DNA of 61,993 nt, counting the filler, from Jimgerdemannia flammicorona (lineage: Eukaryota), in the NCBI GenBank assembly GCA_003990765.1. It is 3 parts of 3 records of this genome, joined end to end, with 100 filler letters (N's around TTAATTAATTAA, not from the genome) between each part and the next. Parts side by side here need not be neighbours in the genome. Positions count along the whole stretch, not along the records: positions 41,397 to 61,993 come from RBNJ01001641.1; 2 more parts are not named here. One strand, 5' to 3'. How positions within the stretch are numbered: the stretch's first letter is position 1; each line of letters opens with the position of its first letter. A program made the position numbers and the translations under genes. This document shows, piece by piece, positions 29,566 to 54,353 of this stretch. The notes beneath the pieces are model-generated. The model worked only from the letters and a program-made list of their open reading frames with translations, made no database searches and had not been told where the DNA came from.

Positions 29566-30813
29566 TTATGATTTACAGACTAGAACCTTGCAGATAGTTA
29601 TCACATTTTGCTTCTCTTGTATAGATTCATGATACTTCTTGAGTCTGTTCCTATATACTATGGTAGGCAGTATGGTCTCTGAGACTTTTCTAAGCTAGAA
29701 GGTAGTTCTCTTGATATCTTGCACATAGAAGAGTCCTTCCCATTTGGGCTCCAGTTTTTATAACCATGAGGCTTCTATCATATTTTGATACAGTAGGACC
29801 TTTTCTCCAATTTGGATGAGTTCTAGGATCTTGTAATTCTTTTCTGCATTCTTCCTTATCAGCACTTGTAACTTGATGATATAATCTTCAGCCTTCTTCC
29901 TGATTTGGTGTAGTCTCCAGATTTCTGAGTCAATCTATCTCCAAGTTAGGTCTAGATTTGTAGCTGAGGTTCCATCAGAATCTTCTTCTCTAAAGAGCAG
30001 TTCTCTTGGGATAAAGTGTGTACTCTGTAACTGTATATCTCATAGGACAGAGAGGGCAGTTGGGAGGTAGTTATTCCAATTTTTGTATGTGTCTGAGATC
30101 TTTGCCAGAATGTTCTTGAGAGTCTTATTGGTTCTCTCTGTTTGTCTATTTTCTTGAGGATGGTATACAGTGGTCTTGATGTGCTGGATCTTGTATTTCT
30201 GATACATTATCTCATAGAATCTATTGACAAATTCTGTGCTGTAGTTTGTTGTGATTTGCTTCAGTATCTTGTAGTGGCAGATGATTTCTTAGTACAGGAT
30301 GTCAGCTATAGAGAGGGCATTGGCTTCTTGTAATACTCCTGCTTCTATCTATTTGGTAAAGAGGTCTACAATAACTATAATATAGTGGTTTTCTGATAGT
30401 GTTACTGATAGTGGCCCAATGATATCTATTGCAATATGGTGAAAGGAGATAGGCTTAATTCTTAATGACTCAGGTATCTGGTCTTACTGATTTTATTTCT
30501 GTTTTTGGCACTTATCATACTCTTTGACAAATTGATATAGGTCTTCTTCTATTTTGGGCTACTATATAGTTCTTCTTGCCTTGTCATATATATTGGTTCC
30601 TCCTAGGTATTCTTGTTTGTATACTTTCTTCATTACTTGATACTTTTTGTATTTAGGTATTATAAGTTTTTCTCCTTTTCTGAGTATGGTGTTGTCTAGT
30701 TCAAACTGTTTCCAAGTCTGGTTGATGATAGTAATTGTCCAGGGTTTGAGGTGGTTGGACATCTTCCACTACTCAAGATAGCTGCTTAATCTATAGTATA
30801 ACACCTTATTCAT
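29566..30813 (-). pseudogene. E3 integrase, separate ORF
   Basis: ATG AAT AAG start at 30813. YLGGTNIYDKARRTI, IAIDIIGP, KLEPKWEG. No chromodomain seen. Confidence 0.85.
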
Positions 30814-33800: not shown

Positions 33801-34827
33801 TGATAGCTGGGGTCTTCTTTGGTCTTCCAACTGGCTTGCTGTTACTCTTCTTGTCATAGGGCTTGGACTGAGTTCTGGTATCTTCAGTAGCAGGATAGAA
33901 TTCAAGCTCCTCATAGTATTCTTCATTATCAGTGTCACCAATCTCCTTGATGACTACTGTATTGGTTTGTTCTCTGGTTCTGCTAGCATTGCTTAGTTGG
34001 ACTTTGTGTCTTGTTTCAGTCATGCAATTCTTTGTATAGTGGTCTTTTTCTCCACATCTGAAGTATATGATATTGTATTCTTCTATAGCAGCTGTAAATC
34101 TCTACACTGGTCTTCTGTTGGCACTTCAGACTTCTCTAACAACATTATTAAGGTGTGCAGTCATCTTGGCAAACTGCTTGGTGAGTTCCTCCACTGGGTC
34201 AGCTTTGGCTATCTTGGGGGTAGGTAGGGATGGTTATCTGTTTACAACTGTAGCAGGTATGATACTGGTTGGCTTTGATAGCTCTATCTTGATACTAGTT
34301 ATTTTCTCCATTGAGTATTTGGCAGGGTGTCTGATAGTTCAATATCTCTGTACAAAGACCACTTTCTGATCAAGAGTGAATATAGCTAGGGTAGACCAGA
34401 TTTCTAGGGCAATTTTAGGGTGAACTCCTTTGAGGAAGATTGAATCTACTATGTATTCCTTGAGGGTATCATCATAGTCAGCCAAGACAATCTGGTGGCA
34501 GATTTAGATATAGAATGAGTTGGGATCTTCACTGAGTCTCTGGCAGATAGTATTGAGTTGATCCTTAAGAGCTTGCTTGATCTCTTCAATATAATATGTT
34601 GTTCTGAGGAAGGCCTTTATGTTGGCAAGTTTGGCTATACTATTATTAGCAATAGTGGTTGCATTGAACTTGTCTCTGGTAGATCCTCTGAAGCTGACTG
34701 ATAGAAGAGTCAATTGTGCATCTATACTAAGGGCTCATATAGCAGCAAATTGTTCAAAGTCTTCAATGAAGGTCAGGATTGACTTTTTAGTAGTATATCT
34801 ATAGAATGTGGGTGGACATATTTCTAT
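30806..34827 (-). pseudogene. E3 gag-PR-dUTPase-RT-RNaseH
   Basis: Capsid remnant. CCHC remnant ~34050. YDILIGNQWL. dUTPase (RSSLA, EVIDPDYTGEI, GFGSTG) 32330-32735. YIDD, AFLGLASYYRRFI, LQTDAS. Confidence 0.92.
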
Positions 34828-34947
34828 CTTAACTTAAATTCTTATAGAGGTGACTCTTGTAGTCAGGGTAGTTATTGTGGTAGTTGTTTGTTTTTCAGCT
34901 TAAAAGTAAGAGATTCATCTTGAATCATCAGCCAATAGGTACCAAGT

Positions 34948-36501
34948 TGTTATGTAGTGGTCGCTGAGTCCTTCAAATATACCAGATTCTCTTTAAGGTA
35001 TATCTCTTAGACTAACTCAAGTTTGTTATAAGCAAGTTCTTATTGGAGTACCTTCCCAAGGTCTTATAGTCCTCAAAATTCTTATCTTTAAACTGTCTTG
35101 TTATCTCTTAGATTACTTATAAGGAAGTGTATATATTGCACTGAGAGGAACTGACTTTATTTTAGAGGAAATAAGAGAGATATTTATACAAAATATAATT
35201 TAATGGTTGCTAATATATAAAGCTAAATATAAATTCCAATAACTAAAATAAAATACCAGGATAGAGAAAACTGCTAAGTTTCAGTTTCAGTACTGATGGT
35301 TGTATAGGGTCAAGATACTGGTATAATTTTGGTAATACAGAAAAATAGTACTGGAATAATTTAGTGTCACATCAGAATACTGGTAGTAGAACAGCTGTTA
35401 TACAGGAAAAGAGTGCTAGTATAATTCAGTATAACCAAGGGACTTAGAGCAGAATATTCAAGACCATAGGGGCTTCATCCTCATCTAAGATCAGGATGTC
35501 TTCAAAGGAGATAAGATCTATGAATTCATCATTGTTATATAGATTGCATGTTTTGCATATATTATGTGGGATGATGTCATCACTGATGATGTCATTACAT
35601 TTGGCAGCAGGAAAATTGGAGGCTCTCTAATCTATGAGGTTTTCTTCCACAAAATAGAGAACAAATATGGAGTCTTAGGGAGGTCTAATCTAGATGCTTG
35701 GGCCTTGGAATACTGAGATCAATCCTTACAGGAATTGGTCTGGGTTGTCTTGGAGGATGGGATGCCAGAAGTCTTCTACTTTATTATTATTAAGGGTAAT
35801 AGTAGACTGGGCTTCTGTAGCCACTCTAGCTTCTAGTATATTGATATGATGGGCTGATAGATCTCTGAAGTCTGAGACTCTAACATACTCCAAGTTGGGG
35901 ATTAACTATAGTATATGTCTGAAGATCTGATGAATCTTCTTAGCTGTCCTTACTTCACATATATTCATAGGAGTAGCATCTTGTAACTCTTGAGGGCTGG
36001 TCTGTGGGAACTTCTAGCAGAGGATATTTCCTATTTCATACTCCTACCATATTTGGAGATATTCAGTAGCAATGGTGATCCTTGTTTCCATTTTATAGTA
36101 GTAGAGAATATAATGATAAGGGTCACTAGTACCCAGGTTGACACTAGGAGTCCTTCTTGAGCAGGTCCTCATGGCTCTTCTGATATCTTAGAACATCCTT
36201 TCTTTGACTTAGGTAACTTGGTAGTTCCTTGACCTTAAGGTTTGATAAGCAGCAGGCATTTTATTTGTGGTAAGTCTTTGAGCTATTTTGGGATTAGTGG
36301 GTCTTATTGGTTACTGCTACTATAGTTTCTTGATCCTTCTTTTATATTCCTCAAGATATCTATACTGTGGTTACAATAACTCATAGTTGGTCATCATTGC
36401 TCATCTTATATGCCATATGATCTTCTTATACTCTGATCTAGTAGCTTGCAAGAAAAGACTGTCTCCTGTACTGATTTCATCATTCTGAGGTCATTATTAT
36501 A
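34948..36501 (-). repeat. E3 5' LTR (1554 bp)
   Basis: Colinear with 27755-29307. Confidence 0.95.
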
Positions 36502-37463: not shown

Positions 37464-37917
37464 CTATTCAAACTCTCAAGCTTCAATGGTCTGTATGGTC
37501 TTGTATTGTGCGATTTATTGCATTACTGTTTCCCAATGGTATCATCTGACTCAGTCAAAGTCTGAGAGAGTCACTTCTTGCAGGTGGGCTAGTGCTGATT
37601 CATCCTCTCAGAATAGCTTGTGGATTCTCTTAGCAATGGTGATCTGGGAATAGGAGAGCTGACATTCTGCGATCCAATTCTCTTTGGTTATTTCTGGGTC
37701 TTGGTTGAGTACTTGGCTAAGTTTGAAGTACTCTTGAAATTCATTTCAATGCTGATAGGTCTTAAAGTGTGAGATTCGAGAGAGATGAGTCTGTATGATG
37801 CTTTGGATACTGTCATAAGACTCCTCTATGGTCAGAGGTGCACCATTGTCTTTTGATGGCTCTTTGGGCAGTGCTAGTGATCTTGAGTACCATCGCAGTA
37901 CTTTTGTTACTGGCCAT
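37464..37917 (-). pseudogene. E4 accessory ORF3
   Basis: FQEYFKLSQVL...ITIAKRIHKLF*EDESALAHLQEVTLSDFD. Stops are mostly TGA, consistent with CGA. The start needs a frameshift or is uncertain. Confidence 0.75.
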
Positions 37918-39100
37918 GATGTTTCTTGAGTCGGTTTCAGTGAATGGTAGTGGGGATTATTGTGCCTGAGGGTTTTTGTAGCCAAAAGGTGGTCCCTTTT
38001 ATATCTTGCACCAGGTAAGGTCCTTCCCACTTGGGCTCCAGTTTTTGTGACCATGAAGCTTCAACCATATTCCGATACACTAGGACTTTGTCTCCTATCT
38101 TGATAATCTCCAAGGGTTTATGGGTCTTTTCCACATTCCTCTGTTGTAGTGTCTGCACCTTGGTTATGTAATCCTCAGCCTTCTTCCTGATTTGGTATAG
38201 TCTCTATATTTCCATATTCACATGTTTCCATATAGCATCTTCATTGGATGATAGGGTTCCCTGAGAACATTTTTCTCTGAACAGCATTTCTTGAGAGATA
38301 AAGTGGGTACTCTGTGATCAGATATCCCAGAGAGTGGATAATGCTATTGGCAGATAGTGATCCCAGTTCTCATAGTTATTACAGATCTTGGCAATAATGT
38401 TCTTGAGGGTTTTGTTGATCCTTTCTACTTGTCTGTTTCCTTGAGAGTGATATACTATGGTCTGAATATGCTGGATCTTGTACTTCTTGTAGAGAACTTC
38501 GAAGAACTGGTTCATGAATTCTTTTCCTCTATCTGTAGTTACTTGTGTTGGGGTCTTGAACCAGCAGATGATTTCCTTGTAGAAGAAATCGGCGATTGAC
38601 TGTGCATTGGCTTCCATAAGGGGTCCCGCTTCTATCCATTTTGTAAAAAGGTCTACAATGATGATAATGTATCAGTTGCCAGTCAAAGTCAAGAGTAGAG
38701 GGCCAATTACATCCATTGTGATGTGGGCGAATGGTACTGGTTCTATGTGTGCTGATCCTGGGGCTCAATTTTGTTGGTCTTGTTTCTGTTTCTGGCATTT
38801 GTCACAGGTCTTGATGAATTGTCTGATATCTTCCTCCATCTCTGGCCACTATATTGTTCTTCTTGCCTTGTCATATATATTCATTCCTCCTAGATGGCCG
38901 AGTTCATATACTGATTTCATCACTTGCTCCTTCTTGTGTTCTGGTATGACTAGTAGTTTTCCTTTCTTTAGTATTTCTCTATCAGTTTCGAATTGTTTCT
39001 ATATTCTGTTGATAATTATTTGTGTCCATTCTTTCAGATGTTGGGGCATCTTTCACTGTCTCAGGTATGTGATAATTCCATAGTAGAGCTCTTTATTCAT
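37907..39100 (-). pseudogene. E4 integrase, separate ORF
   Basis: MNKELYYG start in frame with GHLGG and WPEM..CDKCQ. Also TTDRGKEF, HSQGNRQVER and KLEPKWEGPY. Confidence 0.9.
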
Positions 39101-41276
39101 GATAATTTTGCAGAGGTAGAGTCCTTTGGGATGTCTGTGAGAGGGCATCAGCATTGGCATTGGTTCTTCCAGAGTAGTGTACAATGGTTACATCATAAGC
39201 TTGCAACTTCATTATCCATCTGGTATAGATTCCTTTGGGTTGTCCAGTTGTCAGTAGCCAGGTGAGAGCTGAGTGGTCTGTTTGGATGGTGAAGTGTCTT
39301 CCAGCCAAGTAGTAGTGGAACTTTTCTATGGCCCAGATGACTGCGAGGCATTCCAACTTATAGAATTCATATTCTTTTTCAGCTCCTCAGGTTCCATGGC
39401 TGAGGTATGCAATGATATACTCCACTTTATCTTTCTTTTGAGCTAGAACTGCTCCTAGTTCTTGTGCACTTACATCAGTCTGTAGGATGAATTCTTGAGG
39501 CCAGTCAGGTCTTCTGAGGATGGATGCCTGGGTCAGTCTGACCTTGAGTTCATCAAATGCTTTTTGTTGTCTGCCAGTCCACTGGAACTTAGTATCCTTC
39601 TTGTTAAGTTCGTAGATTGGTCCTACAATATTAGAAAATCCTCTAATAAATCTGTGATAATAGGAGGTGAGTCCCATGAAGACTTGGGCTTCTGTAACAG
39701 TGGTGGGTCTTGGGTATGCTGCCACTGCTTATATCTTGAGGGGGTCCATGTATATTCCATCTTAGTTAATGATGTGGCTGAGATAGGAGATCTCAATTTC
39801 TGTGAATTTATATTTTTTGGGCTTAATGTATAGGCTATGCTTTCTCAGTCTTTCTATTATCTGCTGGATGTGCTGTAGGTGTTCTTCTGGTGTCTGGCTG
39901 TAGATGATTATATCATCAACATAGACCATCATCTATCTTCCCATGTCATGGTGGAAGATTTTGTTTATCATTTGCTAGAAACTTGCAGGTGTATTGCACA
40001 TTCCAAATGACATCCATAGGTAGATGTAGGTTCCGTCTGGAGTGATGAAGGCTGACTTTTCACTTGCCATTTCTGTGAGTCTGATTTGATGGAATTCTGA
40101 GTATAAGTCTAAGGTGCTGTAGTACTGTGCTTCATCTCCCAGTATTATAAGGATGTTACTAATGAGTGGCAGTGGTTGGCGATCCTTCTTGGTAACTGTA
40201 TTGAGCTTTTTGTAGTCAATATAGAGCCTTGAGGCGAATTCTCCAGGTTTGCTTCCTTTTTTCGGGGCTAGTATGACTGGTGAAGACCAGGGGCTGCTGG
40301 CTTCTTTAATGATGCTGGCTTCTTCCATCTGCTTGATTTCTTCTCTGAGCCATTCTCGGTAGGCTGGCAGGATAGGTCTTGCCTTCTGGTAAATTGGTTC
40401 AGTGTCTTTGGTATCTACCTCATGATAGTAGTGTGGAGTCTTTCCCTTGATGTCCTTGAAATCTGTGGCAAGGACATCTTCGAATTCATGGAGTATTTTC
40501 TTGAGTGGAAATTCGTTTCCAATGGTGTAGCTGTGCTTGCTTGTGTTTTTCTCTTTCTTATGCTTGAGTTCGGTGATCTTGGTACTGGCAAATACTCCTC
40601 TTCCTATAGATCCAAATCTTTTCTTTCCTCTTTTCATTTCTTCCAGATTCTTGACTTCTATGATCCTTGGTTGTAGGATTAGAAAGATCAACATTTGCAC
40701 CAATTGGTCCTTCTTCTTGACTGGAAATGGGATTGTAGGATTGTGATTCCTAGCAATGAGTAGAATTTCTCCAGTATAGTCTGAATCGATGACTCCTCCT
40801 TCAATTGCAATTTTGCTTCTAGCCAGACTGCTTCTTGTCTTGAGAATCCCGACATGATCCTTTAGAATGGTCATCTCCAGTCTAGTTGCAAGTAGGGTGG
40901 TTGTCTGAGGTTCCAGTACAGTCTCTTCTACTGTAGTGATGTCCATTCTGGCTGCATTTTCTGACTTGTATTCTGGCAAGACTGTATCAGGGTGGATCTT
41001 TCGAATTTTGACCTTGATTTCTTCTTCATCATCACTGTCCTCCAGGAGGGCTGGTGGTTCATCATCTTCCTTCTTCTCTTCTTCCCTGATCTGTTTTTCA
41101 AGAGCTTTCTGCCTTCTTTCCTGGTGGATCTTCTTGATTCTGATGGTGTACTGGTAGCAATTATTGACATACTCCATACAGTACATCTTGATCCCATGAG
41201 GACAGACTCCTTGTGGTGTATAGCCTTCTGTGATCTTCTTGCACCATTCTTCTTCACTCATCCATCCAACTTTCTT
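39093..41276 (-). pseudogene. E4 dUTPase-RT-RNaseH
   Basis: 428-aa ORF with RSSLA, GGVIDSDYTGEI and RGKKRFGSIG, then SPWSSPV and IDYKKLN. RH ends NADALSQTSQRTLPLQNYHE*. Confidence 0.95.
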
Positions 41277-41296
41277 CTTCTTTTTTTTTTTTTTTT

Positions 41297-41947: not shown

Positions 41948-42079
41948 TGTGACATATACAATTGACAATGGAGTACTAGTGACTGCTAAGATCAGAAGAC
42001 ATAATGGCATAACAATCAAATAGACAGCCTGACCCATTAGGTGATCATCCCAAAAGAAGACAAGATGATCTGAGCCAAA

Positions 42080-43102
42080 ATGAAGACCACATTATTTAAG
42101 GAACCATACTCCACCTCAAGAATCAGCACCAAAGAACCAAGTATCCACCACACAATGCCTCCCATTTGCCAAACCAACCAGACCTCCCGCTGCTCTACCC
42201 CTTTGCCTGGCCCAAAGACCCTGATCTTTGAAGTTATCAAGAAGGCCATCTGGCACTCAGATACTTCCGAACACTTGAACTTCTACACTGAGGACCTTGG
42301 ATACTTCATCAACTACTGGTATATAATGACCCAACAGCTCAAAGATACTACTGAACAAATGACCCTCTGGTATGACTATGAAATCGGACACCGCCTTCGC
42401 AATGAGACTCAAGAAAGCAACCAGGAAGACCTCATTGCCAAAATGTTAACCACCAGCCAGCTAATCAAAAGAGCCCTCCGTGTCCATCAAATCTTCTGCC
42501 ATATTCCCTGGGCTATAGCACACTTGTAAGGAGTAACAGCTGACAGCCTCTCCCGCCTTTCAACTGAAGATGCTGACTGGATAGAATCTGAAGTAGTCAA
42601 CGCTATTGGCAGCAACTGCATCACTGTAGGAAGCCAACAAACCAAACCTACTCAGCCAGGTTTCCATACTACTCCACTCCGAGACAACCATCAAGGTCAC
42701 CTAATGAGTCTTATGGAGATATTTGAAGGACTGCCCATCACTATAGAGGCACCTGTTGGAGCTACCCCAACCACCCACCACCCTGTCAGCCACAATTCAC
42801 ACCTCATCATTTGGGAACCGAATCAAGAAGAAGCCCAAGAAGTTCCTGTCTTTGAAGAGGAGGCCCAAGAACTCCAAGACCCTGCCTCTGAAGAAACCCC
42901 CTCTGACATTGAAACTGACGAGCCTTCAGAAGAAGAAGAGGAGCAACAGAGAGTCTACTAGTCCTCTGTCTACATTCAAGCTGTTCAAAGGTTGGAGAAT
43001 GTTGTTGAAGATGACTGGCCACTTTTCTACCCCCTCACCTCTTGGCTGGCGCTTCCCCCCTTTGAGAAGAGATATGATGAAGAAGAAATCACAACCCAGT
43101 AA
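42080..43102 (+). pseudogene. LTR (U3)-encoded accessory ORF of E5, ~340-353 codons
   Basis: ORFs 42080-42529 and 42704-42961 share one frame. Internal stops are read as Gln in E2 or the 3' LTR copy. May extend to TAG ~43141. Confidence 0.8.
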
Positions 43103-43168
43103 GATTTTCTCGCTGCGGATGAAGGGTATTATTTCCTCTAGAGTACCACCCATCAGCCGTGAGAACTC

Positions 43169-43370
43169 AGCATTTTGTCAGCAGGTCTGAATCCAGCATT
43201 GCTACTCAGTACCACCGTTTTCAGCATTTTGTCAGCTCATCTGAATCCAGCATTGCTACCCAGTACCACTGTTTTCAGCATTTTATCAGCTCATCCGAAT
43301 CTAGCGTTGCTATCCAGTACCACTGTTTTCAGCATTTTGTCAGCTTATCCGAATCTAGTATTGCTATCCC
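43169..43370 (+). repeat. 54-bp tandem repeat, ~3.7 copies, in E5 U3 (also ~53311-53512)
   Basis: Unit CAGCATTTTGTCAGCTCATCCGAATCCAGCATTGCTACCCAGTACCACCGTTTT. Confidence 0.9.
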
Positions 43371-44213
43371 CTATAACCCAATCCATAGTAAACAATAGCC
43401 TGCACCTCGTATCGTGCAAACCAATAGCATAAGTTTGCCACAACATAGTATACCTTAGCCTTAGTTACACCCCTCCCCCATAGCTAGCAAACTTGTATAA
43501 ATAACCCATATCCTTAGAGTGAATAAACCTCAGTCAGCTTGTATTTAAAAGTAAAAAGGATTACAAAGAAACCACTGCCTCCAAGAGACTGGATAAATTC
43601 TGAGAACAAGATAACAACCTAGAGCAATAGATTGCTTGGAAGTTTGAGTTAAAGAATTTTCTCTTGCCATGGAAAGAAAATGTTACCCGACCACCACCAT
43701 TCAGACCACGCATTCGACCACCATTCGAGATTCAAGACCCGGAAAACCAAGGAACCCAAGGATACCCAGCCAAACAAGACCACAGCCTAAGACCTGCCAA
43801 GATACTCAAATGACCATCAAAGACCCGAGTTATCCCGCCCTTTCAAGCTAAACAAGATGGACGAGCGAGCCGTCGACTGATTCCTGACCTACTGTGCCAT
43901 GGACCACTTTAATTGACCGCTTAAAGCCAAGCCCGTCATCACCGCCAAGTTATTCGCTGCCCTTTTCCACTAAAAAATTGAGCCACCATCATTGAACAAC
44001 CGAATGACCTCATCATCGACGTCCTGAGCCAAACGAACAATCGAACTTCTGCTATCAATTATCGCATATTTCGAATGATCCGATCACGTGACCATTGACC
44101 CGTCACCACTGTGAACATCACCAATGCATTCAGTTATCTATTGCACACTTCACCAGTGGCACACATTGAGCCATGCCAGAAGCAACTAGGGATACAAACC
44201 CAACACCACATTT

Positions 44214-44231
44214 TGGGGGCTCAACTGGGAA
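44214..44231 (+). promoter_or_regulatory. E5 primer-binding site, tRNA-Pro-like
   Basis: TGGGGGCTCAACTGGGAA directly after the LTR. Confidence 0.75.
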
Positions 44232-44279
44232 GGTTTTCAAAAGACTTGACCATTTGGCTCAAGAACCCAGCGATCTACA

Positions 44280-47200
44280 GTGGAGAACTTAGCAGGACCA
44301 AGTCAGCAACCAAACCAGGGGCAGCAACAGCCCTCCTCAGCAGAAAAGAAAGCCTACACCCTTGTCAGAACAGTAGCCAGGACCCTACTCAACACCAGTA
44401 GCCAGAAAACCGAATCAGAAGAAAGAAGTGACCCAGATTACGGTTTGACTCCAAGAGAAAGGAGACAACTCAGAGGGCAACCAGAACCGCCCCTTCAGAT
44501 CCAAGACTTAGGCCAAGAAGAAGAAGAAGAGGATATCTCTAAGGAGTATCAGACCCTTATCCATAAGAAGAACTCAGACAGAAGTGACTACATAACTACT
44601 GTTATTACTCGAGTCACTCCACTAGACTGGGTATACTTTGAAACATCAGAAGGAGAAGAGGACTACCATCTATATCAACCAGAGCAAGATGATGATTGGG
44701 GATCAGACCATCAAAGAGATGAATTCAACCTATACTATTATCCAGACAGCGACACTGACCCACAACAAGGCGAACCAGACCTCACTACTTCACAACAGCA
44801 AGGGGTAGATGAACTCACTATCAGTTATATCAGTCCACTCCCACCATCAGTTGCTTGAACTTCAGTATCCTGGTCACTCACACCTCACCACTATCACCAG
44901 TCAATCAGAAGATCTCCACCACTACCCAGGATGTCAACCCCAGCATTAATTAGAAGAGCCAGATTACCCTCACCCTCACCAAGACACCACCCTCTGCCAG
45001 TACTACTAGATCATCAAGTACTAGCACCACCACCTTTCCCATCACTCCGAGGATCCACCAGATCCCCTACCCCTGAACAATACTCAGATAGTGAAGACGA
45101 GCCAGACATGAGCTACCTTCAGAAGTTCCATGGTGCAGACAATGAAGATATCAAGGAATTCTTTGGAGAAATTGAAGTTCAAGCAGCTGCCAAACAATGG
45201 GATGCTGTAAGAAAACTCAGAATTGTAGAGTCACTCCTGAGAGGACCAGCCCTACAGAGGTATAATCAAGCCAAGTAAGCTGGAGGAGGAATCCATACAG
45301 AGGAACTGAATGACAGTCTTCAACCTGATAGGAACCATATAGCAAGGTACATGATTCACAAAGCCTGGCTCCATGCCCAGTTCAATGGATTCAAGCACCA
45401 ACAAGAAGCACAGGAGGCTTTGACCTATATGAGCCAAGCTGCCAATGAAACTCCCAAGAGTTTCTATCATCGGATTTAAGCTCAAATGATCAAGGTGAAC
45501 CTTCAACCAGCAGTCCAACTGGCCTTAGCCTCAACTACCTTCCTCAATGACTTATACCCAGAACTCTGAAGGCAAGTTATTAGGATGGGATATCGAAACA
45601 TTGAACAGCAAGTTGCTGGAGCACAAGGATGTTGGGAAGCAGATTATAGACCAGTACAACAAGTACAAGGCTATCCTGAGCCAATCCAAGCTGAAACCCC
45701 AAGGACCAGAGGAACAACTATGGAGCAAGAGAATGCCTTCCTCAGAGCCCAGATAGCCAACTATGAGAACAGACCAGCACCCACAAATCCAACTCCATTT
45801 AGGCAACCACAGCAGCAGCCACCATCAAGAGTTCAAGAAGACCCTATGACAATGCTCACTAAGCAAATGAAGGACCTGGCCATCGTGGTTGCCCAGCTGA
45901 ACAACCAAGGTAGAAGACAACAAGACTACTGTCATAATAACAGACCAGACTACCGGCAACAAGACAACAGAGGTCCCACCCCCGCACTACCAGCTACAAC
46001 TACAGCCTCATCAGCGACTGGTTCCTATGGTCCCACCTGCTTCAGCTGTGGAAATCAAGGCCACATCCAGAGGAATTGTCTAAGGAACCAACCCACCCAG
46101 TCCAATGACAGAAATGTCAACCTCTTTCAGGTAGATGAAGAGACTCAGGAGATGGAAGAAGAAGCAGCCTGACTCCATGGTCAAGAAGATGACATCTACC
46201 CATACTTCGAGGCCTTTCCATCCAAGGTGATATGGGAAGCTGCCCCCACAGAGACCAGAGGGTGAGGAAGACCACAAAGAAACCCCCCACCTCAACTACC
46301 AGTAACTATATCCACAGGCAAGCATCTGCGATATGGCTATTCTTCTTCAGACACTCCACAAGAACAGGAGAAGCGAGTTAGAAGAGATACTCCTGAACCA
46401 GAAGCTGGACCATCTAGGACAACCCCCAGCTCTACCCTGCCAGACTTTGAAGAAGATGAGCATATGAGCATAGAATCTTCAGCTGATGAAATGCCCATCA
46501 GGAATGAGAGACTACACTCCAAGGGACCAAGACACCGAAGAAGCAGCAAGCCCCATGCAGCAGCCTCACTTTGGGAACATATCTGCCTATAGTATACTGG
46601 TCTTACAGTTGAGCAAGTCCTCAAGAATGCACCAGAGGTCAGGCGAAAATTCCTGAAAGAAGCCAAGGAAGACACCAAGAGACTTCCAGTCCAAGGACCA
46701 CACACTCAAGAACCTAGCACTATCCATGCAGTCTATGAGAGCCAGTGATATGAACATCAATCTACAAGACTCGTCGATGGAAAAGTGCATGGTGAAAATA
46801 TCAGAATTCTTGTCGATACTGGAGCAGCAGTATGTATCATCACCCAAAGGATATTGGAGCGAATTGGATGGGGAATAGATGAAGGAACTAAAGCAAGAGT
46901 TATCATGGCCGACGGATCAGCTTCCACACCCCTTGGACTTGTCAGAGACATCCCCATTCAAGTTGGAAAGGCCTGCCTCAATGTACCCAAAGCCATCATG
47001 ACCCCTGCAACCTCCTATGACCTGATCCTGGGAACTGACTGGTTAAGCCGAGTGGGAGCTAATGTAGATATCAAGAAACAACTCCTGGTCTTCTCCACTC
47101 ATGGACAGAAGCACAAGGTGCCCATTGACTCGAAAGGATTATCTAAAAAGACGAATCAAGCCTCAGAAACAGAATGGCAAGAATATGGCAATACCCCCAC

Positions 47201-50200
47201 TACTACTGAGAATGAAAGTGAGACTAATTTCCTACAAGAACTAGGAAGTGATTTCAATGCCCCAAGGGACCAAGAAAGCGAACAAGAAGACTCTTTCATT
47301 GGAGTTATTGGTGTTGAAGGCCTGGAAGAAAGCATTGATAGAGCCATTAATATAAGAGCAGCACTTGAGTTTATAGGATCTTCTGCTCAATCACCACCAC
47401 CACTGGTAGAAAATCGGATCATGCGAGCCTTTTGTTGAGGCATATGCGAATACTTCATCAGCTTCCACTCACCAAGAGATGATTGCAGCAATTGCCAAAT
47501 CCTGGATCTCAAGAAGGTTCCAATGCCAGAAATCGATGACAAGGATGAATTGAAGCAAGCACCATCCCACAGCCAAATACAACCTCCAACCCCAAAGACC
47601 TTCAAGAAGACCTATAAGGAAGGACAGAAGATCCTCGCCCACCAAACATTCGAGTCCCTTACCATTGAAGGAGAAAGCAACAGCTCTTACACTATCACTC
47701 GGGCCCTCCAGATCACACAGCCCACCTATGATAAATATCAGAAGAGATTCCCTACCAGTAGGGAGGTCAAATAGCAAAATGAAGACTTTGTCAAGAAGGG
47801 ATATTGTGATTGTGGAAAAACCTTTACCTGCTACTGGTGTGAACATCGAGACGTTCACCTCAGCGAAGATGTCTACAAGAGCCGAGTCAAGAGAAAGGAT
47901 CCCACCCTGCAAAAACCTTGAATTCACTGGGCCTGTCGGAAGTGCAAAGAAATCAACTATGAAGGAGATTGCAAGTTCAAGAGCAAGACCTCCATCTGGG
48001 ACCTACCATTGGAAGTTCTTGCCATCATTCGCTGGTACTGCCACCCTCATCAAGGAAAAGAAGGTATCAATCTTGCCTTCACCCTTATGGAAGCTCTGGA
48101 CCCTCTAGAAAAGACTGGATTCAATTACACAAGAAACTCAAAGACAGGAGCTCACTGGCCTTTCTTCAAACCGGAGTGCATGGACTTCTCACCTACAATG
48201 ACAACAGCTGAAGCGCTATTTCTCAAAGCTCAACCAATTATCCAGATCAAGCTGCTTTCACCCTGGGCACAGCCACCTCTTGCACAAACAGAAGGATCAG
48301 TTGGCTATGACCTCTGCCTCCCCTACCAAGTAAGAATCTGACCCAGAAGTACCAGGACTTTTGACCTACAGATCACACTCGCTATACCACCTGGGCATTA
48401 TAGACAATTGGCCTCAAGATCCTCATTGGCAACCAAAGGAGTTACAGTAGAAGGAGGAGTCATCGATCAGGACTACCGAGGTCTCTTGAAGGTCATTATC
48501 TGCAATTCCAGTAGAACCAGCCGATTCTTCAGTCCTATGGAAGCCATCTGTCAAATCCTGTTTATCAAGACATCACAGCTGACTATCCAAGAGGTAGACC
48601 AACTAGAAGATACCAACAGAGGACAAGAAGGCTTTGGAAGCACCAATAGAAATCTATGGACACCACCTATCGAGGTTCATTTGGCAATAGTTGCTCAATT
48701 CTGACAAATGAGACCCCATATCTACCGCCCAATCCGAGCAAGAGAAGACATCCTCCTGCAGCCCTACCAGCAAAAAGGCCTAGATGTGCACCTACCAGTA
48801 GAAGCAAACAACTTGATATTTGCACCATCACTGGAGCTTCAAAAGGAATACCACATCCTCCTGGCTGAAGAACAAATTCATGACCAGATGTCACCAATTC
48901 ACATCCCTATCAGAAACTTGGCCTTCGAAGTGATAACTATCTCCAAGGGAACAACACTGGGATATTTCAAACCACTGATAGACACCTACGAGGAAGAAGT
49001 CTTCAAATTCTTGGGAAACAGCAAGCTCTCTCCAGTGAGACTGACGGTACCAGAGAGGAAGACTCAGCAAATTCAGTACTCAAAGCTGTCGACATCGAGA
49101 CAACTCTAACCAAGGACCAGCAACAACAAATACAGGAGTTGATAGAGGAGTACAAAGATATATTTACCACCACATACGATAACTTCCTACCATATCAATA
49201 TGGAGAACACCCTATACATACTGGAGATACAAGACCAATCCGACAAAGACCCTACCGAACACCACATCATCTGATTGAATTCAAACAACAACACATAGAT
49301 GAAATGCTATGAAATGGAGTTATCAGACCATCATCAAGCCCCTGGGCCTCACCAGCAATCATAGTACCAAAGAAAGGAGGATGGAGATTAGTCGTGGATT
49401 TCAGAAAACTCAACAAAGTCACCACAGAAGATGCCTACCCACTGCCAAGAATTGATGACCTCATCAATGCCCTCGGAAAAGCCAAATACATGACCACTAC
49501 TGACCAGTTCCAAGGATTCCAAGTAATACCCATTGCCAAAGAAGATATCTGCAAGACGGCCTTCATCATCAGACGAGGACAGTATGAATACCTATGAATG
49601 CCCTTTGGACTCTGCAATGCACCTGCCTCATTCCAACGAATGATGAACTATGTCTACTGGGACCTTATTAGAAGAAATGTACTAGTGTACATAGATGATG
49701 TAATCATCTACTCTGAGACATTGAAGCAGCATTTGCAAGACCTCTGCGAAGTATTCAATACCATTCGAAATTCAGAACTCAGACTCAATGCCAAGAAGTG
49801 CTTCTTCAGAAAGCATCAAGTCAAATATCTGAGATATGTTGTCTCAGCTCAAGGAACACATGCCGACCCCCGCAAGGTGGAGAAAGTCAAGAACTACCCA
49901 ACCCCGACCTCAGCAAAGGAGACCCTATCCTTCCTTATACTGGCATCCTACTATCGACAATTCATCCCAAGGTTTTCAGATAAGGCAGCACCTCTCCGAG
50001 ATATCTCCAAGAAGGACCAACCATTCTACTGGAAAGGAGAACAACAAAAGTCATTCGACCTACTCAAGAAGACCCTTACCGAAGCCCCTGTCCTGGTGTG
50101 ATCAGACTTTGGCAAACCATTCATCCTGGCAACTGATGCCTCAGCCTTAGGACTTGGATCAATTCTGTCTCAGTAAGATGACCAGAAGAGGGAGCATATT

Positions 50201-50548
50201 ATCGAATATACTAGCAAGGCCACGAATGAAACACAAGCGAACTATGGAGCCACTAAGTTGGAATGCCTAGCAGTAGTTTGGGCTGTGGACCACTTCTGAC
50301 ACTATCTCTTGGGAAAGAGATTCGCCCTCATCACTGACCATCAAGCTCTACAATGGTTGTTCAATAAGCCAGAGCCCTCAGGAATCTTCACTAGATGGAT
50401 CATGTCCCTGCAAGAATATCAGTTCACTATTGTCTACAAGAAAGATGCTAAGAATTCCAATGTCAATACCCTGTCAAGAATCCCGTGAAACCAACAAGAA
50501 GGGAAGGAGCCCCCACAAGAGAAGGCTGCTTCCTGTCTACCCAAATGA
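44280..50548 (+). pseudogene. E5 gag-PR-(Cys-rich/F-box-like)-dUTPase-dUTPase-like-RT-RNaseH
   Basis: ORF fragments at 44280, 44931, 45585, 46785, 47523, 48009, 48408 and 48708 all share one frame, with one frameshift ~49090. Motifs CFSCGNQGHIQRNC, ILVDTGA, GYDL/RSSLA/GGVIDQDYRG/RGQEGFGST, YIDD and LATDAS. Confidence 0.95.
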
Positions 50549-51765
50549 ACCAAGAATTGCACCTCGCCCTTACCTGGAGCCTACACCATAGAAGCTTCAA
50601 GAAAGGAATTCAACCAGCCTACAAGTTGTTTATCCAAAGGAATTTCAAGAAATTCCAAGAAGACAATAGCGAACTTTGGAGAGTAGAAGGAGAGCAGTAC
50701 ACCCGAGTTTCAAGAGAAGAAGAAATATTGAAGATTCTGACAACAAATCATGACCAAAATGCACACCAAGGAATTGGTACCACAATCGCAAGAATCAAGA
50801 AACGATACTGATGGCCCAAGATGAGAAAACAAATTTCAATGTACATTCAACAATGTGATATCTGCCAAAGATACCGACAAAAGCCTACCAACAGAGCACC
50901 ATTAATACCAATCGCAGCACCAGCTGGAGCCTTTCAAAGACTAGGAATAGACATTATTGGACCTCTACCAGTAACCAGCCAAGGAAGATACTACATCCTC
51001 ACTATCAAAGACCACCTGACAAAATGGCCCGAAGCCTTTGCTATCGAGACTGCCGATGCCCAGACAATTATTGGGATCCTGTATGATGAAATTTTCAGCC
51101 GCCATGGTGTGCCCAAGGAAATCATTACAGACCAAGGCCGAGAATTCGTCAACCAAGCCATGAAGACCTTTGCGAGCAACTTCAAGATCAAGCTATGACC
51201 AACAACAGCCTACTACCTACAGACAAATAGACTCACTGAATGAATGAACTAGACCATCAAGCGAGGTCTCAGTAGAACCGAAGATCAACTAAACTGGGAT
51301 ATCTATCTACCGGCAATTCTGTTCAGCATCTGTACCTCTAAGGTAACCGCTACCCAACAGACCCCCTTCTATTTGGTATATGGCTGAGAAGCACAAGATC
51401 CTACTGAACCAGTCCAGCTAGATCTGTCAAAACAAGTCACAGAAGAGATCACCCAGTTACATGACATATGCCAGCAAGCACGAGAATTTATCGCCAAGGC
51501 ACAAGAATGACAAAAGAGGTACTACGACCGCAAAGCCAACCTTGAACCCCTGCTCATTAGACAAAAGGTTCTGGTGTACCGTACCATCATAGAAGGAAAT
51601 TGGAGTACCAAGCTTGAACCAAAATGGAAAGGCCCCTATCTCATACATCAAGTATTCTCGAACCACACTTATCAACTCAAGACCTTGGATGGAGTTATAC
51701 TCAAGACCAAGATACATCACAACCGCATAAGACTCTACTACTCAAGAGAAGCAAAATGCATTTGA
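50545..51765 (+). pseudogene. E5 integrase, separate ORF
   Basis: MNQELHL start. HDQNAHQG...CDICQ, GIDIIGP, TDQGREF, KLEPKWKGPY. No chromodomain seen. Confidence 0.93.
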
Positions 51766-52090
51766 ACAATCCTGTTCACTCTGTCTGTATTGCCTCCACT
51801 GGAGATACAATGGATATTTCACTCGGAACTCAAGAAAGCCAATAACGTTGGAACCAGACTCAAGCCCATCCACGTGACAGACTTTGTTACTAAGAAATTG
51901 TCTCGGATTATAAGTAATACTATTTCCGATGGATTCGAACCCCCAGCCGTGACTATGGGAGCTCTCGCCCTAGATAAGGATGGCCAGTCCTCACAAATGC
52001 ACCAGCATTCCGCTCATCCCTAGAGTTAAGACCACCCAACTCTGTGTAATCCTCACTGCCGAGGACAGCTCTAATTTTGCAAGGGGCAGA

Positions 52091-54353
52091 TGTGACGTAC
52101 ATAATTGACAATGGAGTACCAGTGACTGCTAAGATCAGATGACATAATGGTATGACAATCAAATAGACAGCCTGACCCATTAGGTGATCATCCCAAAAGA
52201 AGACAAGATGATCTGAGCCAAAATAAAGACCACGTTATTTAAGGAACTATACTTCGCCTCAAGGATCGGCACCAAAGAACCAAGTACCCACCATACAATG
52301 CCTCCCATTCGCTGAACTAACCAGACCTCCCGCTGCTCTACCCCTTTGCCTGACCCAAAGACCCTGATCTTTGAAGCTATCAAGAAGGCCATCTGGTGCC
52401 CAGATACTTCCGAACACTTGAACTTCTACACTGAGGACCTTGGACACTTCATCAACTACTGGTATATAATGACCCAATAGCTCAAAGACACTACCAAACG
52501 AATGACCCTCTGGCATGACTATGAAATCGGACACTGCCTTCGCAATGAGACTCAAGAAGGCGACCAGGAAGACCTCATTGCTGAAATGTTAACCACCAGC
52601 TGGCTAATCAAGAGAGCCCTCCGTATCTATCAAATCTTCCACCATATTCCCTGGGCTATAGTACACTTGTAAGGAGTAACAGCTGGCAGCCTCTCCCACC
52701 TTTCAACTGAAGATGCTGACTGGATAGAATCTGAAGTAGCCAACACTATTGGCAGCAACTGCATCGCCGTAGGAAGCCAACAAACCGAACCTACTCAGCC
52801 AGGTTTCCACACCACCCCACTCTAAGACAACCATCAAGGTCACCTAATGAGTCTTATGGAGATATTTGAAGGACCATCTATCACTATAGAGGCACCCATT
52901 AGAGCTATCCCAATCACCCACCATCCTGTCAGCCACAATTCACACCTCATCATTTGGGAACCGAATCAAGAAGAAGCCCAAGAAGTTCCTGTCTTTAAAG
53001 AGGAGGCCCAAGAACTCCAAGACCCTGCCCCTGAAGAAACTCCCTCTGATACTGAAACTGACGAGCCTTCAGAAGAAGAAGAGGAGCAACAGAGAGTCTA
53101 CCAGTCCTCTGTCTGCATTCAAGCTGTTTAAGGGTTGGAGAATGTTGTTGAAGATGACTGGCCACTTTTCTACCCCCTCACCTCTTGGCCGGCACTTCCC
53201 CCCTTTGAGAAGAGATATGATGAAGAAGAAATCACAACCCAGCAAGATTTGCCCGCTATAGACGAAGGGTACTATTTCCTCTAGAGTACCACCCATCAGC
53301 CGTGAGAACTCAGCATTTTGTCAGCAGATCCGAATCCAGCATTGCTACCCAGTACCACCATTTTCAGCATTTTGTCAGCTCATCCGAATCCAGTGTTGCT
53401 ACCCAGTACCACCATTTTCAGCATTTTGTCAGCTCATCCGAATCCAGCGTTATTACCCAGTACCACCGTTTTCAGCATTTTGTCAGCTCATCCGAATCCA
53501 GTGTTGCTATCTCCTATAACCCAATCTATAGTAAACAATAGCCTGCATCTCGCATCGTGCAAACCAATAGCATAAGTTCGCCACAACATAGTATATCTTA
53601 GCCTTAGTCGCGCCCCTCCCCCATAGCTAGCAAACTTGTATAAATAACCCATATCCTTAGAGTGAATAAACCTCAGTCAGCTTGTGTTTAAAAGTAAAAA
53701 GGATTACAAAGAAACCACTACCTCCAAGAGACCAGATAAATTCTGAGAACAAGATAACAACCTAGAGCAATGGATTGCTTGGAAGTTTGAGTTAAAGAAT
53801 TTTCTCTTGCCACAGAAAGAAAATGTTACCTGACCGCCACCATTCGGACTACGCATTCAACCACCATTCGAGATTCAAGACCCGGAAAACTAAGGAATCC
53901 AAGGATACTCAGCCAAACAAGACCGCAGCCTAAGACCCGCCAAGATACTTGAACGACCATCAAAGACCCGAGTTATCCTGCCCTTTTAAGCTAAACAAGA
54001 TGGACGAGTGAGCTATCGACTGATTCCCGACCTACTGCGCTATGGACTGCTTTAATTGACTGCTTAAAGCCAAGTCTGTCGTCACTGCCAAGTTATTCGC
54101 CACCCTTTTCCACTAAACAATTGAGCCACCATCATTGAACAACCGAATGACCTCATCATTGATATCCTGAGCCAAACGAACAATCGAACTCCCACTATCA
54201 ATTATTGCACATTTCGAATAACCTGATCATGTGACCATCGACCCGTCACCACCGCAAACATCACCAATGCATTCAGTTATCCATCATGTGCTTCACCAGT
54301 GGTACACATTGAGCCATGCCAGAAGCAACTAGGGATACAAACCCAACGCCACA
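52091..54353 (+). repeat. E5 3' LTR (2263 bp)
   Basis: TGTGACGTAC...CGCCACA followed by ATAT. Confidence 0.97.

What the first reader, a model, noticed from the sequence alone, without database searches (positions are those of the whole stretch)
50459..50560. Split pol: integrase is a separate ORF whose ATG overlaps the RNase H stop in four different Gypsy families
Seen in sequence: in E5 the RH frame runs through the NADALSR-equivalent and a TGA (probably ex-CGA) to ...CLPK-TGA, and this TGA overlaps the IN ATG (ATGA, 50545-48). E1 has CCC TAA TGA, giving TAATG/ATGA at 11785-90. E3 (30814-30806) and E4 (39101-39093) both end HE* in CATGAATAA. All four integrases begin Met-Asn, in frame with the zinc finger. 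Established: Ty3/Gypsy normally make RT-RH-IN as one polyprotein, and AUGA/UAAUG overlaps mediate termination-reinitiation in victoriviruses, caliciviruses and the SART1 LINE. Inference: the same junction in four diverged families is not decay, so IN is probably made by translational coupling or from a subgenomic RNA. From memory, the Repbase Troyka group has a separate IN ORF, and this should be compared.
Basis: partly seen in the sequence, partly recalled or inferred. Interest (0 to 1): 0.88.

Follow-up and report, generated by a model that had tools for sequence, protein, structure and literature searches.

The report
Gypsy retrotransposons with separately translated integrase
In a large group of fungal Gypsy retrotransposons the integrase is its own gene, and its start codon overlaps or abuts the stop codon of the Gag-protease-reverse transcriptase gene, which points to an unusual, probably coupled, way of making integrase.

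Summary
The window comes from an Endogonales (Mucoromycota) fungus and carries four decayed Ty3/Gypsy copies. In each, the integrase (IN) frame starts with Met-Asn at an ATG that overlaps the RNase H (RH) stop: ATGA in E5, TAATGA in E1, ATGAATAA in E3 and E4.

Intact relatives on metagenome contigs show the same layout. L003 has one 1564-aa Gag-PR-dUTPase-RT-RH ORF and a 418-aa IN ORF joined by ATGA. Of 46 metagenome loci that hold both RH and IN, 23 are split, 19 are fused and 4 are unclear. On an IN tree one branch (SH-aLRT 98) separates every split row from every fused row. The IN start Met is invariant.

Of the 27 split junctions (23 loci plus 4 window copies), 22 have the ATG within -8 to +18 nt of the stop, in all three frame relations. 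In 5 the IN frame is closed upstream of the ATG.

The best reading is termination-coupled reinitiation (about 0.55). This is inferred, not shown. No RNA data were available. The recollection that Troyka has a separate IN ORF is wrong. Nine literature searches found no paper describing this layout.

The parts
41948..54353 (+). E5: a full-length decayed Gypsy element. LTRs are 41948-44210 and 52091-54353 (2263 nt each, 92.1% identical, 5'-TG..CA-3').
   Evidence: gag zinc knuckle, protease, RT, RH and IN found by Pfam or HMM.
49850..50548 (+). E5 RNase H domain and C-terminal tail of ORF1, ending at TGA 50546-50548.
   Evidence: RH profile hit 49850-50509; translation.
50486..50488 (+). In-frame TGA inside the E5 RH tail. 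It is a decay product of CGA in this copy.
   Evidence: T>C at 50486 in all covering contigs of runs X1, X2 and X4.
50497..50538 (+). Predicted RNA hairpin that ends 6 nt before the ATGA.
   Evidence: -19.1 kcal/mol, z -1.73.: only 0.9% of local 50-nt windows fold as well. By my reading of the structure, the family variant T>C at 50534 turns a G-U pair into G-C.
50545..50548 (+). E5 stop-start overlap ATGA: IN ATG at 50545-47, ORF1 TGA at 50546-48.
   Evidence: No variant is listed here in other family copies.
50545..51750 (+). E5 integrase ORF. Starts Met-Asn, has 6 premature stops, and matches profile positions 1-411.
11785..11790 (+). E1 junction TAATGA: RH frame TAA then TGA, IN ATG at 11787-89. 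The element (about 4620-14532) is heavily decayed.
   Evidence: Nearest relative L032 has ATGA.
30806..30814 (-). E3 junction CATGAATAA: IN ATG 30813-11, RH TAA 30808-06, IN in the +1 frame.
29617..30813 (-). E3 integrase ORF (decayed), profile positions 1-412.
   Evidence: reverse-strand coordinates converted.
39093..39101 (-). E4 junction CATGAATAA: IN ATG 39100-98, RH TAA 39095-93, IN in the +1 frame.
   Evidence: The intact relative L017 has the same ATGAATAA after a 1258-aa ORF1.
37904..39100 (-). E4 integrase ORF (8 premature stops), profile positions 1-412.
39978..41294 (-). E4 ORF1 piece with a dUTPase domain between protease and RT. E3 has the same domain at 32201-32971 (- strand).
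27762..36499 (-). E3 element. Terminal repeats are 27762-29305 and 34955-36499 (87.7% identical).

Best explanation
These are members of a large clade of Ty3/Gypsy (Metaviridae) LTR retrotransposons, found here in a Mucoromycota fungus and abundant in soil metagenomes. Their coding region is split in an unusual place. ORF1 is one long Gag-protease-(dUTPase)-RT-RNase H polyprotein. Integrase is a second cistron of about 400-440 codons that begins at a conserved Met-Asn/Asp/Glu. This architecture is shown (confidence about 0.95).

The mechanism is inferred. A ribosome that terminates ORF1 on the full-length RNA most likely reinitiates at the adjacent IN AUG (termination-reinitiation). In some lineages a stable hairpin just upstream may help, as in fungal victoriviruses. 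Where a short AUG-free spacer is present, the ribosome would scan to the next AUG. Because reinitiation is inefficient, IN would be made in small amounts relative to Gag-PR-RT-RH. That would put the dose-reducing step at the RH/IN boundary instead of the usual gag/pol boundary. IN would then have to join the particle or the cDNA complex without being covalently tied to Gag.
For: **Architecture**
- L003 has an ORF1 of 1564 aa (zinc knuckle, PR, dUTPase, RT, RH) and an IN ORF of 418 aa, overlapping by ATGA.
- L057 has an ORF1 of 1128 aa and an IN ORF of 420 aa.
- L017 and L005 have intact ORF1s of 1258 and 1623 aa that end at the IN ATG.
- 27 of the 28 stand-alone IN proteins I fetched start at the homologous Met. 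Met1 is invariant in a 26-row alignment.
- 23 of the best 150 representatives (clusters at 50% identity) match from profile position 1 at residue 1. They begin MD (11), MN (9) or ME (3).
- 18 of 23 split metagenome loci keep an IN ORF of 399 codons or more.
- On the IN tree, one branch (SH-aLRT 98) puts all 26 split rows on one side and all 19 fused rows on the other.
- 0 of the 23 dUTPase-bearing RT hits, among 120 listed, carry an integrase domain.

**Coupling**
- 22 of 27 junctions have the ATG within -8 to +18 nt of the first base of the stop: ATGA x6, TAATG x3, stop-NN-ATG x2, ATGGATCTAG x1, ATGAATAA/G x4, ATGAACACTGA x1, and in-frame TAA plus 9-15 nt plus ATG x5.
- The frame relation switches between close relatives. 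L020 (+1) and L005 (-1) are sisters, and both group with L004 (+1).
- Chance would give an overlap of 11 nt or less in only 17-19% of cases.
- 3 of 3 spacers of 72-97 nt contain no ATG (P of none = 0.22, 0.37, 0.17).
- Upstream hairpins: L007 z -3.27, L009 z -3.69, L032 z -3.51. Five of 21 junctions rank within the best 1.5% of local windows.
- Stop-start reinitiation is established for victoriviruses, hypoviruses, caliciviruses and the SART1 element (passages of PMC5972666 and PMC10275272).
Against: - No translation or RNA evidence of any kind exists here. No RNA run was listed.
- The upstream structure is not general. 12 of 21 junctions rank above 0.4 in the local-window test, including all five +1-frame junctions.
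- RNAalifold found 0 pairs for the L007/L009/L010/L012 set, and only a weak helix far from the junction for the in-frame-stop set. The L007/L009 'covariation' rests on two sequences compared by eye.
- The calicivirus motif UGGGA is absent from the 70 nt upstream of the IN ATG in 26 of 26 junctions.
- Two basal loci (L021, L023) have 278-371-nt spacers holding 3 and 7 ATGs. Simple reinitiation or scanning does not explain these.
- Some of the closeness of stop and start could be inherited from a fused ancestor rather than selected.
- The tree was built by the quick method, with long-branch warnings on the fused side.
Confidence: 0.55

Rival explanations
1. IN is translated independently of ORF1 termination. 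It comes either from a subgenomic or spliced IN mRNA (as spumaviruses make Pol, or retroviruses make Env) or from an internal ribosome entry element. The stop-start closeness would then reflect compaction and ancestry only.
For: - The conserved Met and the closed upstream IN frame fit any independent initiation.
- L021 and L023 have long spacers with several ATGs and a conserved duplicated motif of about 35 nt. This could be a promoter or an entry element.
- Most junctions lack a strong nearby structure.
Against: - Overlaps are held at 11 nt or less in 12 of 12 overlapping junctions, and gaps at 2-15 nt in 10 more. This persists through repeated frame switches. Independent initiation has no need for that.
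- Short spacers are ATG-free in 3 of 3 cases.
- Rfam found nothing in the L021 spacer.
Confidence: 0.27
2. A recoding event still makes an RT-RH-IN fusion: -1 or +1 ribosomal frameshifting, or readthrough of the in-frame TAA. On this view the ATG is incidental.
For: - 3 of 11 -1-class junctions have a canonical X_XXY_YYZ heptamer in the overlap (L012, L009, L005).
- In the ATGAATAA class, a +1 shift at the stop codon would land in the IN frame (my reading).
- Five loci have an in-frame TAA that readthrough could pass.
- One fused relative keeps the Met internally (P0313).
Against: - 8 of 11 -1 junctions have no slippery heptamer, and in L022 the overlap is only 7 nt.
- In 5 of 5 long-spacer loci the IN frame is closed between the RH stop and the ATG, so no fusion is possible.
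- Three different frame relations within one clade would need three different recoding signals.
- Met1 is invariant in split elements, whereas the fused forms I looked at show no Met there (H, S or A in L059, L078, L044; the long fused proteins).
- All five in-frame stops are TAA. From recall, that is the least leaky stop.
Confidence: 0.1
3. The split is mutational decay or an assembly or gene-calling artefact in dead copies.
For: - The window copies are clearly decayed, with 6-8 premature stops per IN and an excess of C>T and G>A changes relative to other copies.
- Four metagenome loci on the fused side of the tree show a frame change or an in-frame stop without the conserved Met. These look like decay (L031, L065, L067, L072).
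Against: - Intact two-ORF elements exist.
- 18 of 23 split loci keep an intact IN ORF.
- The split is clade-wide.
- The start Met is invariant.
- The evidence is at the DNA level on 23 independent contigs.
Confidence: 0.02

Closest known systems
Canonical Ty3/Gypsy (Metaviridae) LTR retrotransposons, including the dUTPase-bearing families of basidiomycetes and bdelloid rotifers (Juno, Vesta, TelKA)
   Same: - LTRs with TG..CA termini.
- Gag zinc knuckle.
- Domain order PR-RT-RH-IN.
- GPY/F motif in IN.
- dUTPase between PR and RT, as in E3, E4, L003, L005 and L017.

Sources; passages of PMC5408684 and PMC2864245.
   Different: In described families pol is one polyprotein that includes IN, and the ORF break, if any, lies between gag and pol (passages of PMC3248453, PMC2864245, PMC5408684). 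Here Gag is fused to PR-RT-RH and the break lies between RH and IN.
Stop-start (termination-reinitiation) cistron pairs of fungal victoriviruses (AUGA with an upstream pseudoknot) and hypovirus CHV1 (UAAUG)
   Same: - Overlapping AUGA or UAAUG after a very long upstream ORF.
- A fungal host.
- In some lineages, a stable structure ending 4-10 nt upstream of the junction.

Sources; passages of PMC5972666; start of the PMC2699510 abstract as printed in the search listings.
   Different: These are LTR retroelements, not RNA viruses. The downstream product is integrase, not a polymerase. The upstream structure is absent in many lineages, and function is untested.
SART1 and LINE-1 non-LTR retrotransposons (ORF1/ORF2 coupling)
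   Same: Retrotransposon bicistronic RNA with a UAAUG overlap (SART1) or a short spacer (LINE-1). The second ORF encodes the enzymatic protein (passages of PMC5972666 and PMC10275272).
   Different: The element class differs. SART1 needs a downstream structure, whereas here the downstream 90 nt is only slightly more structured than controls (mean z -0.24 against +0.38). The reviews I read name only non-LTR elements as retrotransposon examples.
Troyka LTR retrotransposons
   Same: LTR retroelements with the PR-RT-RH-IN order.
   Different: Troyka has 3-bp target-site duplications, CG..CG termini, mostly a single Gag-Pol ORF and no GPY/F motif (PMC12440569, abstract and section 12). The window elements have TG..CA termini and GPY. 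Troyka is not reported to have a separate IN ORF.

Membership tests
Ty3/Gypsy (Metaviridae) | Domain order protease - RT - RNase H - integrase | tested here: met
   Pfam hits in that order in E5, E3 and E4 and in L003, L005, L017 and L057.
Ty3/Gypsy (Metaviridae) | Long terminal repeats with 5'-TG..CA-3' ends | tested here: met
   E5 LTRs are 2263 nt, 92.1% identical, and run TGTGAC...CCACA. The ends of E3 and E1 are decayed.
Ty3/Gypsy (Metaviridae) | GPY/F motif near the integrase C-terminus | tested here: met
   KWEGPY or KWKGPY in E4 and E5. G375 and P376 are invariant in alignment A1.
Ty3/Gypsy (Metaviridae) | RT-RH-IN made as one Pol polyprotein | tested here: not met
   IN is a separate ORF in 23 of 46 metagenome loci and in all 4 window copies. 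This departs from the usual expression strategy. It is not a departure from the family's defining domains.
Troyka | 5'-CG..CG-3' termini | tested here: not met
   E5 has TG..CA. Definition taken from the PMC12440569 abstract.
Troyka | No GPY/F motif in IN | tested here: not met
   GPY is present. Definition taken from PMC12440569 section 12.
Troyka | 3-bp target-site duplication | tested here: inconclusive
   The E5 flanks are AT-repeats (atatatatat / atatattaat), so the duplication length cannot be read.
Termination-reinitiation (stop-start) cistron pair | Restart AUG overlapping or within a few nt of the upstream stop | tested here: met
   22 of 27 junctions lie within -8 to +18 nt.
Termination-reinitiation (stop-start) cistron pair | Cis RNA element near the junction (TURBS motif 1, or an upstream pseudoknot or hairpin) | tested here: inconclusive
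   UGGGA is present in 0 of 26. A strong upstream hairpin is found in 5 of 21, and 12 of 21 have none. Pseudoknots could not be predicted with these tools.
Termination-reinitiation (stop-start) cistron pair | Downstream translation depends on upstream termination at that site | not testable with these tools
   Needs a reporter assay or ribosome profiling.

The most novel reading that the evidence does not exclude
A whole, species-rich clade of Metaviridae has moved its translational throttle from the gag/pol boundary to the RH/IN boundary. Gag-PR-RT-RH is made as one protein. Integrase is made as a free, low-dose protein by stop-start reinitiation. This would be the first LTR-retroelement example of that mechanism, with lineage-specific upstream hairpins. 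It implies that integrase is recruited to the particle or the cDNA complex non-covalently.
Probability: 0.5. Interest if true: 0.85.

Novelty: new variant of a known kind. Interest (0 to 1): 0.77.

Why it matters
In retroviruses and LTR retrotransposons the textbook rule is that Pol enzymes, integrase included, are made as part of a Gag-Pol or Pol polyprotein. That sets their dose and carries them into the particle.

A large clade that makes integrase from its own cistron breaks both parts of the rule. It raises two testable questions: how integrase dose is set, and how a free integrase finds the reverse-transcription complex.

It would also add LTR retroelements to the short list of eukaryotic systems that use stop-start reinitiation after a very long ORF. 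The natural series of junction variants (overlaps in two frames, in-frame stops, short and long spacers) is well suited to dissecting the mechanism.

There is a practical consequence too. Annotation pipelines that expect a continuous pol will score intact elements of this clade as frameshifted or dead.

Tried and rejected
- **Host genome.** No whole genome is held for this window, so per-family copy comparison in the host was not possible.
- **Earlier findings.** None exist for this genome.
- **RNA runs.** No RNA holder was listed for the E5 stretch. Only DNA contigs could be laid.
- **Viral contigs.** A scan gave 11 distant loci (24-34% identity), none of the split clade. I did not analyse them.
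- **Rfam.** No match in the L021 spacer.
- **RNAalifold.** On L007/L009/L010/L012 it found 0 pairs. On the in-frame-stop group it found a weak helix (-5.36 kcal/mol) over the conserved ADAL-coding stretch, not at the junction.
- **TURBS motif 1.** UGGGA was absent in 26 of 26 upstream regions.
- **k-mer enrichment upstream of the ATG.** It mostly recovers the codons of the conserved RH peptide. CCCAA occurs in 12 of 26 against 2.5 expected, which may reflect Pro-rich tails. I draw nothing from it.
- **Troyka.** Rejected as a comparator on its defining features.
- **Splicing that fuses RH to IN.** The ATGA class has no room for an intron, and L057 has no GT upstream of its stop (by eye on the and 57 prints). 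A spliced IN-only mRNA is not excluded.
- **Complex prediction.** I ran no IN-with-RT-RH or IN-with-Gag prediction, because the binding claim is a consequence of the finding, not the finding itself.
- **Literature.** Nine searches found no paper describing a Gypsy RH/IN split with a stop-start overlap. Repbase entries and most subscription journals are not in the library, and I opened no supplementary tables.
Full report
**What is in the window**

The 62-kb window is eukaryotic and full of decayed retroelements. An ORF at 59463-60560 encodes a BRCT protein 100% identical, over 98% of its length, to a protein annotated in Jimgerdemannia flammicorona. The next best hit is from Endogone. The host is therefore an Endogonales fungus (Mucoromycota).

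Profile searches find four Gypsy pol regions:

| Element | Strand | Span | LTR identity |
|---|---|---|---|
| E1 | + | about 4.6-14.5 kb | about 82% |
| E3 | - | 27762-36499 | 87.7% |
| E4 | - | about 36.5-41.9 kb | no LTRs found |
| E5 | + | 41948-54353 | 92.1% (2263-nt LTRs, TG..CA ends) |

E3 and E4 carry a dUTPase domain between protease and RT.

**The observation**

Every coordinate checks.
- **E5:** the RH frame passes ...NTLSRIP, a TGA at 50486-88, and 19 more codons to ...SCLPK. It stops at TGA 50546-48. The IN frame starts at ATG 50545-47, giving ATGA with IN in the -1 frame.
- **E1:** TAATGA at 11785-90.
- **E3 and E4:** both read CATGAATAA (ATG 30813-11 and 39100-98), with IN in the +1 frame.
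- All four IN frames begin Met-Asn, and the integrase profile matches from its first position in E3, E4 and E5.

I laid contigs of four soil-metagenome runs on E5.
- No difference is listed at the ATGA, although contigs span it.
- Paired one-base insertions and deletions at 50531-38 cancel out.
- Where the other copies differ from the window copy, they mostly read G for its A and C for its T, so the window copy carries an excess of C>T and G>A changes.

The four copies are diverged. E3 and E4 share 59% aa identity in RH and about 70-72% nt identity. E5 shares about 46% with E3 and with E1. E1 is nearest metagenome locus L032 (67% aa), and E5 is also nearest L032 (55% aa). E1 is the weakest case: its RT and RH are in different frames, and by comparison with L032 its TAA looks like a decayed CAA ahead of an original ATGA (by eye).

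**Intact relatives**

I searched with the E4 integrase, read with X at its 8 stops. The search found 51 proteins among 943 candidates. Most are stand-alone integrases of about 400-440 residues from metagenomes, at 37-69% identity and 99-100% coverage.
- Of the 28 I fetched, 27 start at the homologous Met. One has an 18-residue upstream extension with that Met internal.
- Met1 is invariant in a 26-row alignment that includes E4 and E5.

A metagenome scan with this alignment returned 79 loci. Intact elements show the full architecture:

| Locus | ORF1 | IN ORF | Junction |
|---|---|---|---|
| L003 | 1564 aa (zinc knuckle, protease, dUTPase, RT, RH) | 418 aa | ATGA |
| L057 | 1128 aa (Ty3-type capsid, protease, RT, RH) | 420 aa | 97-nt spacer |
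| L017 | 1258 aa | broken | ATGAATAA |
| L005 | 1623 aa | broken | ATGGATCTAG |

L017 is 79% identical to E4 in IN and has the same ATGAATAA as E3 and E4.

**How general the split is**

I mapped RH and IN profiles on all frames of all loci.
- 46 loci hold both an RH end and a downstream IN.
- 23 are split and 19 are fused (same frame, no stop between).
- 4 are unclear: L031 and L065 change frame, and L067 and L072 have one in-frame stop. None of these four has the conserved Met, and all sit among fused relatives, so they look like decayed fused copies.

On an IN tree of 73 rows, one branch (SH-aLRT 98) separates 25 rows (19 fused and 6 unclassified) from 48 rows (all 26 split rows, plus 22 whose contigs lack the upstream part). 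The tree used the quick method, and the fused side carries long-branch warnings.

Three further counts agree:
- 18 of 23 split metagenome loci keep an IN ORF of 399 codons or more.
- Of 120 listed relatives of the L017 RT-RH, 23 carry dUTPase and none of those carries an integrase domain.
- In a library of 1.84 billion cluster representatives, 23 of the best 150 hits match from profile position 1 at residue 1, starting MD (11), MN (9) or ME (3). Two more have short upstream extensions, and one (P0313, 936 aa) is a fused form with the Met internal. The many long proteins in that list are ordinary fused pols with no Met at that position.

**Anatomy of the junction**

The 27 split junctions (23 loci plus 4 window copies) fall into these classes:

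| Junction type | Count |
|---|---|
| ATGA | 6 |
| TAATG | 3 |
| Stop, 2 nt, ATG | 2 |
| ATGGATCTAG | 1 |
| ATGAATAA or ATGAATAG | 4 |
| ATGAACACTGA | 1 |
| In-frame TAA, then 9-15 nt, then ATG | 5 |
| Spacer of 72-371 nt | 5 |

- 22 of 27 have the ATG within -8 to +18 nt of the stop, in all three frame relations.
- The frame relation changes between close relatives. L020 (+1) and L005 (-1) are sisters, and both group with L004 (+1).
- A stop in an alternative frame would fall within 11 nt by chance only 17-19% of the time, and within 4 nt 6% of the time. All 12 overlapping junctions overlap by 11 nt or less.
- In all 5 spacer loci the IN frame is closed between the RH stop and the ATG, so no frameshift fusion is possible there.
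- The three spacers of 72-97 nt hold no ATG.
- The two longest spacers (L021 and L023, a basal group) hold 3 and 7 ATGs and share a duplicated motif of about 35 nt.

**RNA structure**

The 90 nt upstream of the ATG fold better than control windows (mean z -0.77 against +0.38, Mann-Whitney p 0.004). So do the 90 nt downstream, more weakly (mean z -0.24, p 0.005).

The upstream signal comes from a subset of junctions.
- With 50-nt windows ranked against each locus's own background, 5 of 21 junctions (L003, L032, L007, L009, E5) fall in the best 1.5%. Nine of 21 fall in the best 10%. Twelve of 21 are unremarkable, including all five +1-frame junctions.
- L007 and L009 each fold into a two-part hairpin of 13-14 base pairs that ends 4-6 nt before UAAUG (z -3.27 and -3.69). 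Their stem sequences are almost entirely different.
- This looks like covariation, but it rests on two sequences. RNAalifold on the four-member subfamily found no pairs.
- E5 and its relative L032 have hairpins ending 6-10 nt before AUGA, although the hairpins lie over different parts of the RH tail.
- By my reading of the structure, the family variant at 50534 would strengthen the E5 stem.
- The calicivirus motif UGGGA is absent from all 26 upstream regions.

**Mechanism**

What is shown is the architecture: two cistrons, a conserved start Met, and a tight stop-start arrangement kept through frame changes.

What is inferred is how IN is translated. Termination-coupled reinitiation fits best for three reasons:
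- It is indifferent to frame.
- It explains selection for closeness of stop and start, and for ATG-free short spacers.
- It is known after long ORFs in fungal victoriviruses and hypoviruses, in caliciviruses, and in the non-LTR element SART1 (passages of PMC5972666 and PMC10275272).

The rivals fare as follows:
- **Frameshifting or readthrough** is a poor general answer. Eight of 11 -1 junctions lack a slippery heptamer, five loci cannot make a fusion at all, and three recoding types would be needed in one clade. It cannot be excluded for single lineages, such as L009 or L012, the in-frame TAA group, or a +1 shift at the stop in the ATGAATAA group.
- **A separate IN mRNA or an internal entry element** cannot be excluded without RNA data. 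It is the more likely answer for L021 and L023.

A consequence follows if IN is free, and this too is inferred. All four intact ORF1s fuse Gag to PR-RT-RH, so the dose-reducing step sits at RH/IN rather than at gag/pol. IN must then reach the particle or the cDNA complex without a covalent link to Gag.

**Comparison with what is known**

These elements are Ty3/Gypsy by domain order, LTR ends and the GPY motif. They are not Troyka. That group is defined by CG..CG ends and 3-bp duplications, mostly has a single Gag-Pol ORF and lacks GPY/F (PMC12440569, abstract and section 12).

Surveys of fungal and rotifer LTR elements describe a fused Gag-Pol or separate gag and pol, with IN inside pol (passages of PMC2864245, PMC3248453 and PMC5408684). 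Two reviews of reinitiation name only non-LTR retrotransposons as examples.

Nine full-text searches found no description of an RH/IN split with stop-start overlap.

**Verdict**

The finding is real, extends well beyond the window, and appears undescribed in the literature I could search. It is a new variant of a known kind of element that uses, most likely, a known kind of translational mechanism in a new place. The mechanism is still to be shown.

Noticed in passing
window 32201-32971 (-) and 39978-41294 (-); L003, L005, L017: A dUTPase domain sits between protease and RT in E3, E4 and several intact relatives. L057 and other split elements lack it. The rotifer Juno, Vesta and TelKA families and some basidiomycete Gypsy families are reported to have the same placement (passages of PMC5408684).
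   Followed up: partly
window 49800-51000 (E5), and the premature stops in E4 and E5 IN: Other family copies in soil contigs mostly read G where the window copy has A and C where it has T. All 14 premature stops in the E4 and E5 IN ORFs are TGA or TAG. This looks like C>T/G>A deamination-type decay of the window copies.
   Followed up: partly
window 20599-20698 and 41297-41396: Two pairs of 44-base N blocks, each pair separated by 12 bases. The second pair lies at the truncated 5' end of E4.
   Followed up: no
window 14700-24600: A G+C-rich stretch (46-53%) with long ORFs on both strands. One ORF (16846-17571) has an endonuclease/exonuclease/phosphatase domain, so this is probably a LINE-like element.
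   Followed up: no
window 43167-43432 and 53256-53575: Tandem 54-nt repeats inside both E5 LTRs.
   Followed up: no
window 59463-60560: A BRCT-domain ORF identical to a protein annotated in Jimgerdemannia flammicorona. The next best hit is Endogone at 53% identity. This gives the host lineage.
   Followed up: yes
L003 5960-6652: A third ORF of 230 aa starts 29 nt before the IN stop in an otherwise intact element. It has no Pfam match.
   Followed up: no
L021 3859-4229; L023 1078-1355: The long RH-IN spacers of this basal group share a conserved region of about 170 nt with two copies of a motif of about 35 nt. There is no Rfam match. It could be an internal promoter or an entry element.
   Followed up: partly
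L036, L043, L046, L049, L051: One well-supported subclade has RH and IN in the same frame, separated by a single TAA and 9-15 nt before the conserved ATG-GAC-CC (Met-Asp-Pro) start.
   Followed up: partly
P0313 (936 aa): A fused RH-IN protein that keeps the conserved Met-Asn at the homologous internal position. It could be a reversal or an intermediate between the fused and split states.
   Followed up: no
L066 4362-5164: In this locus ORF1 runs about 800 nt beyond the end of the RH profile hit before its stop, so it may hold an extra domain.
   Followed up: no
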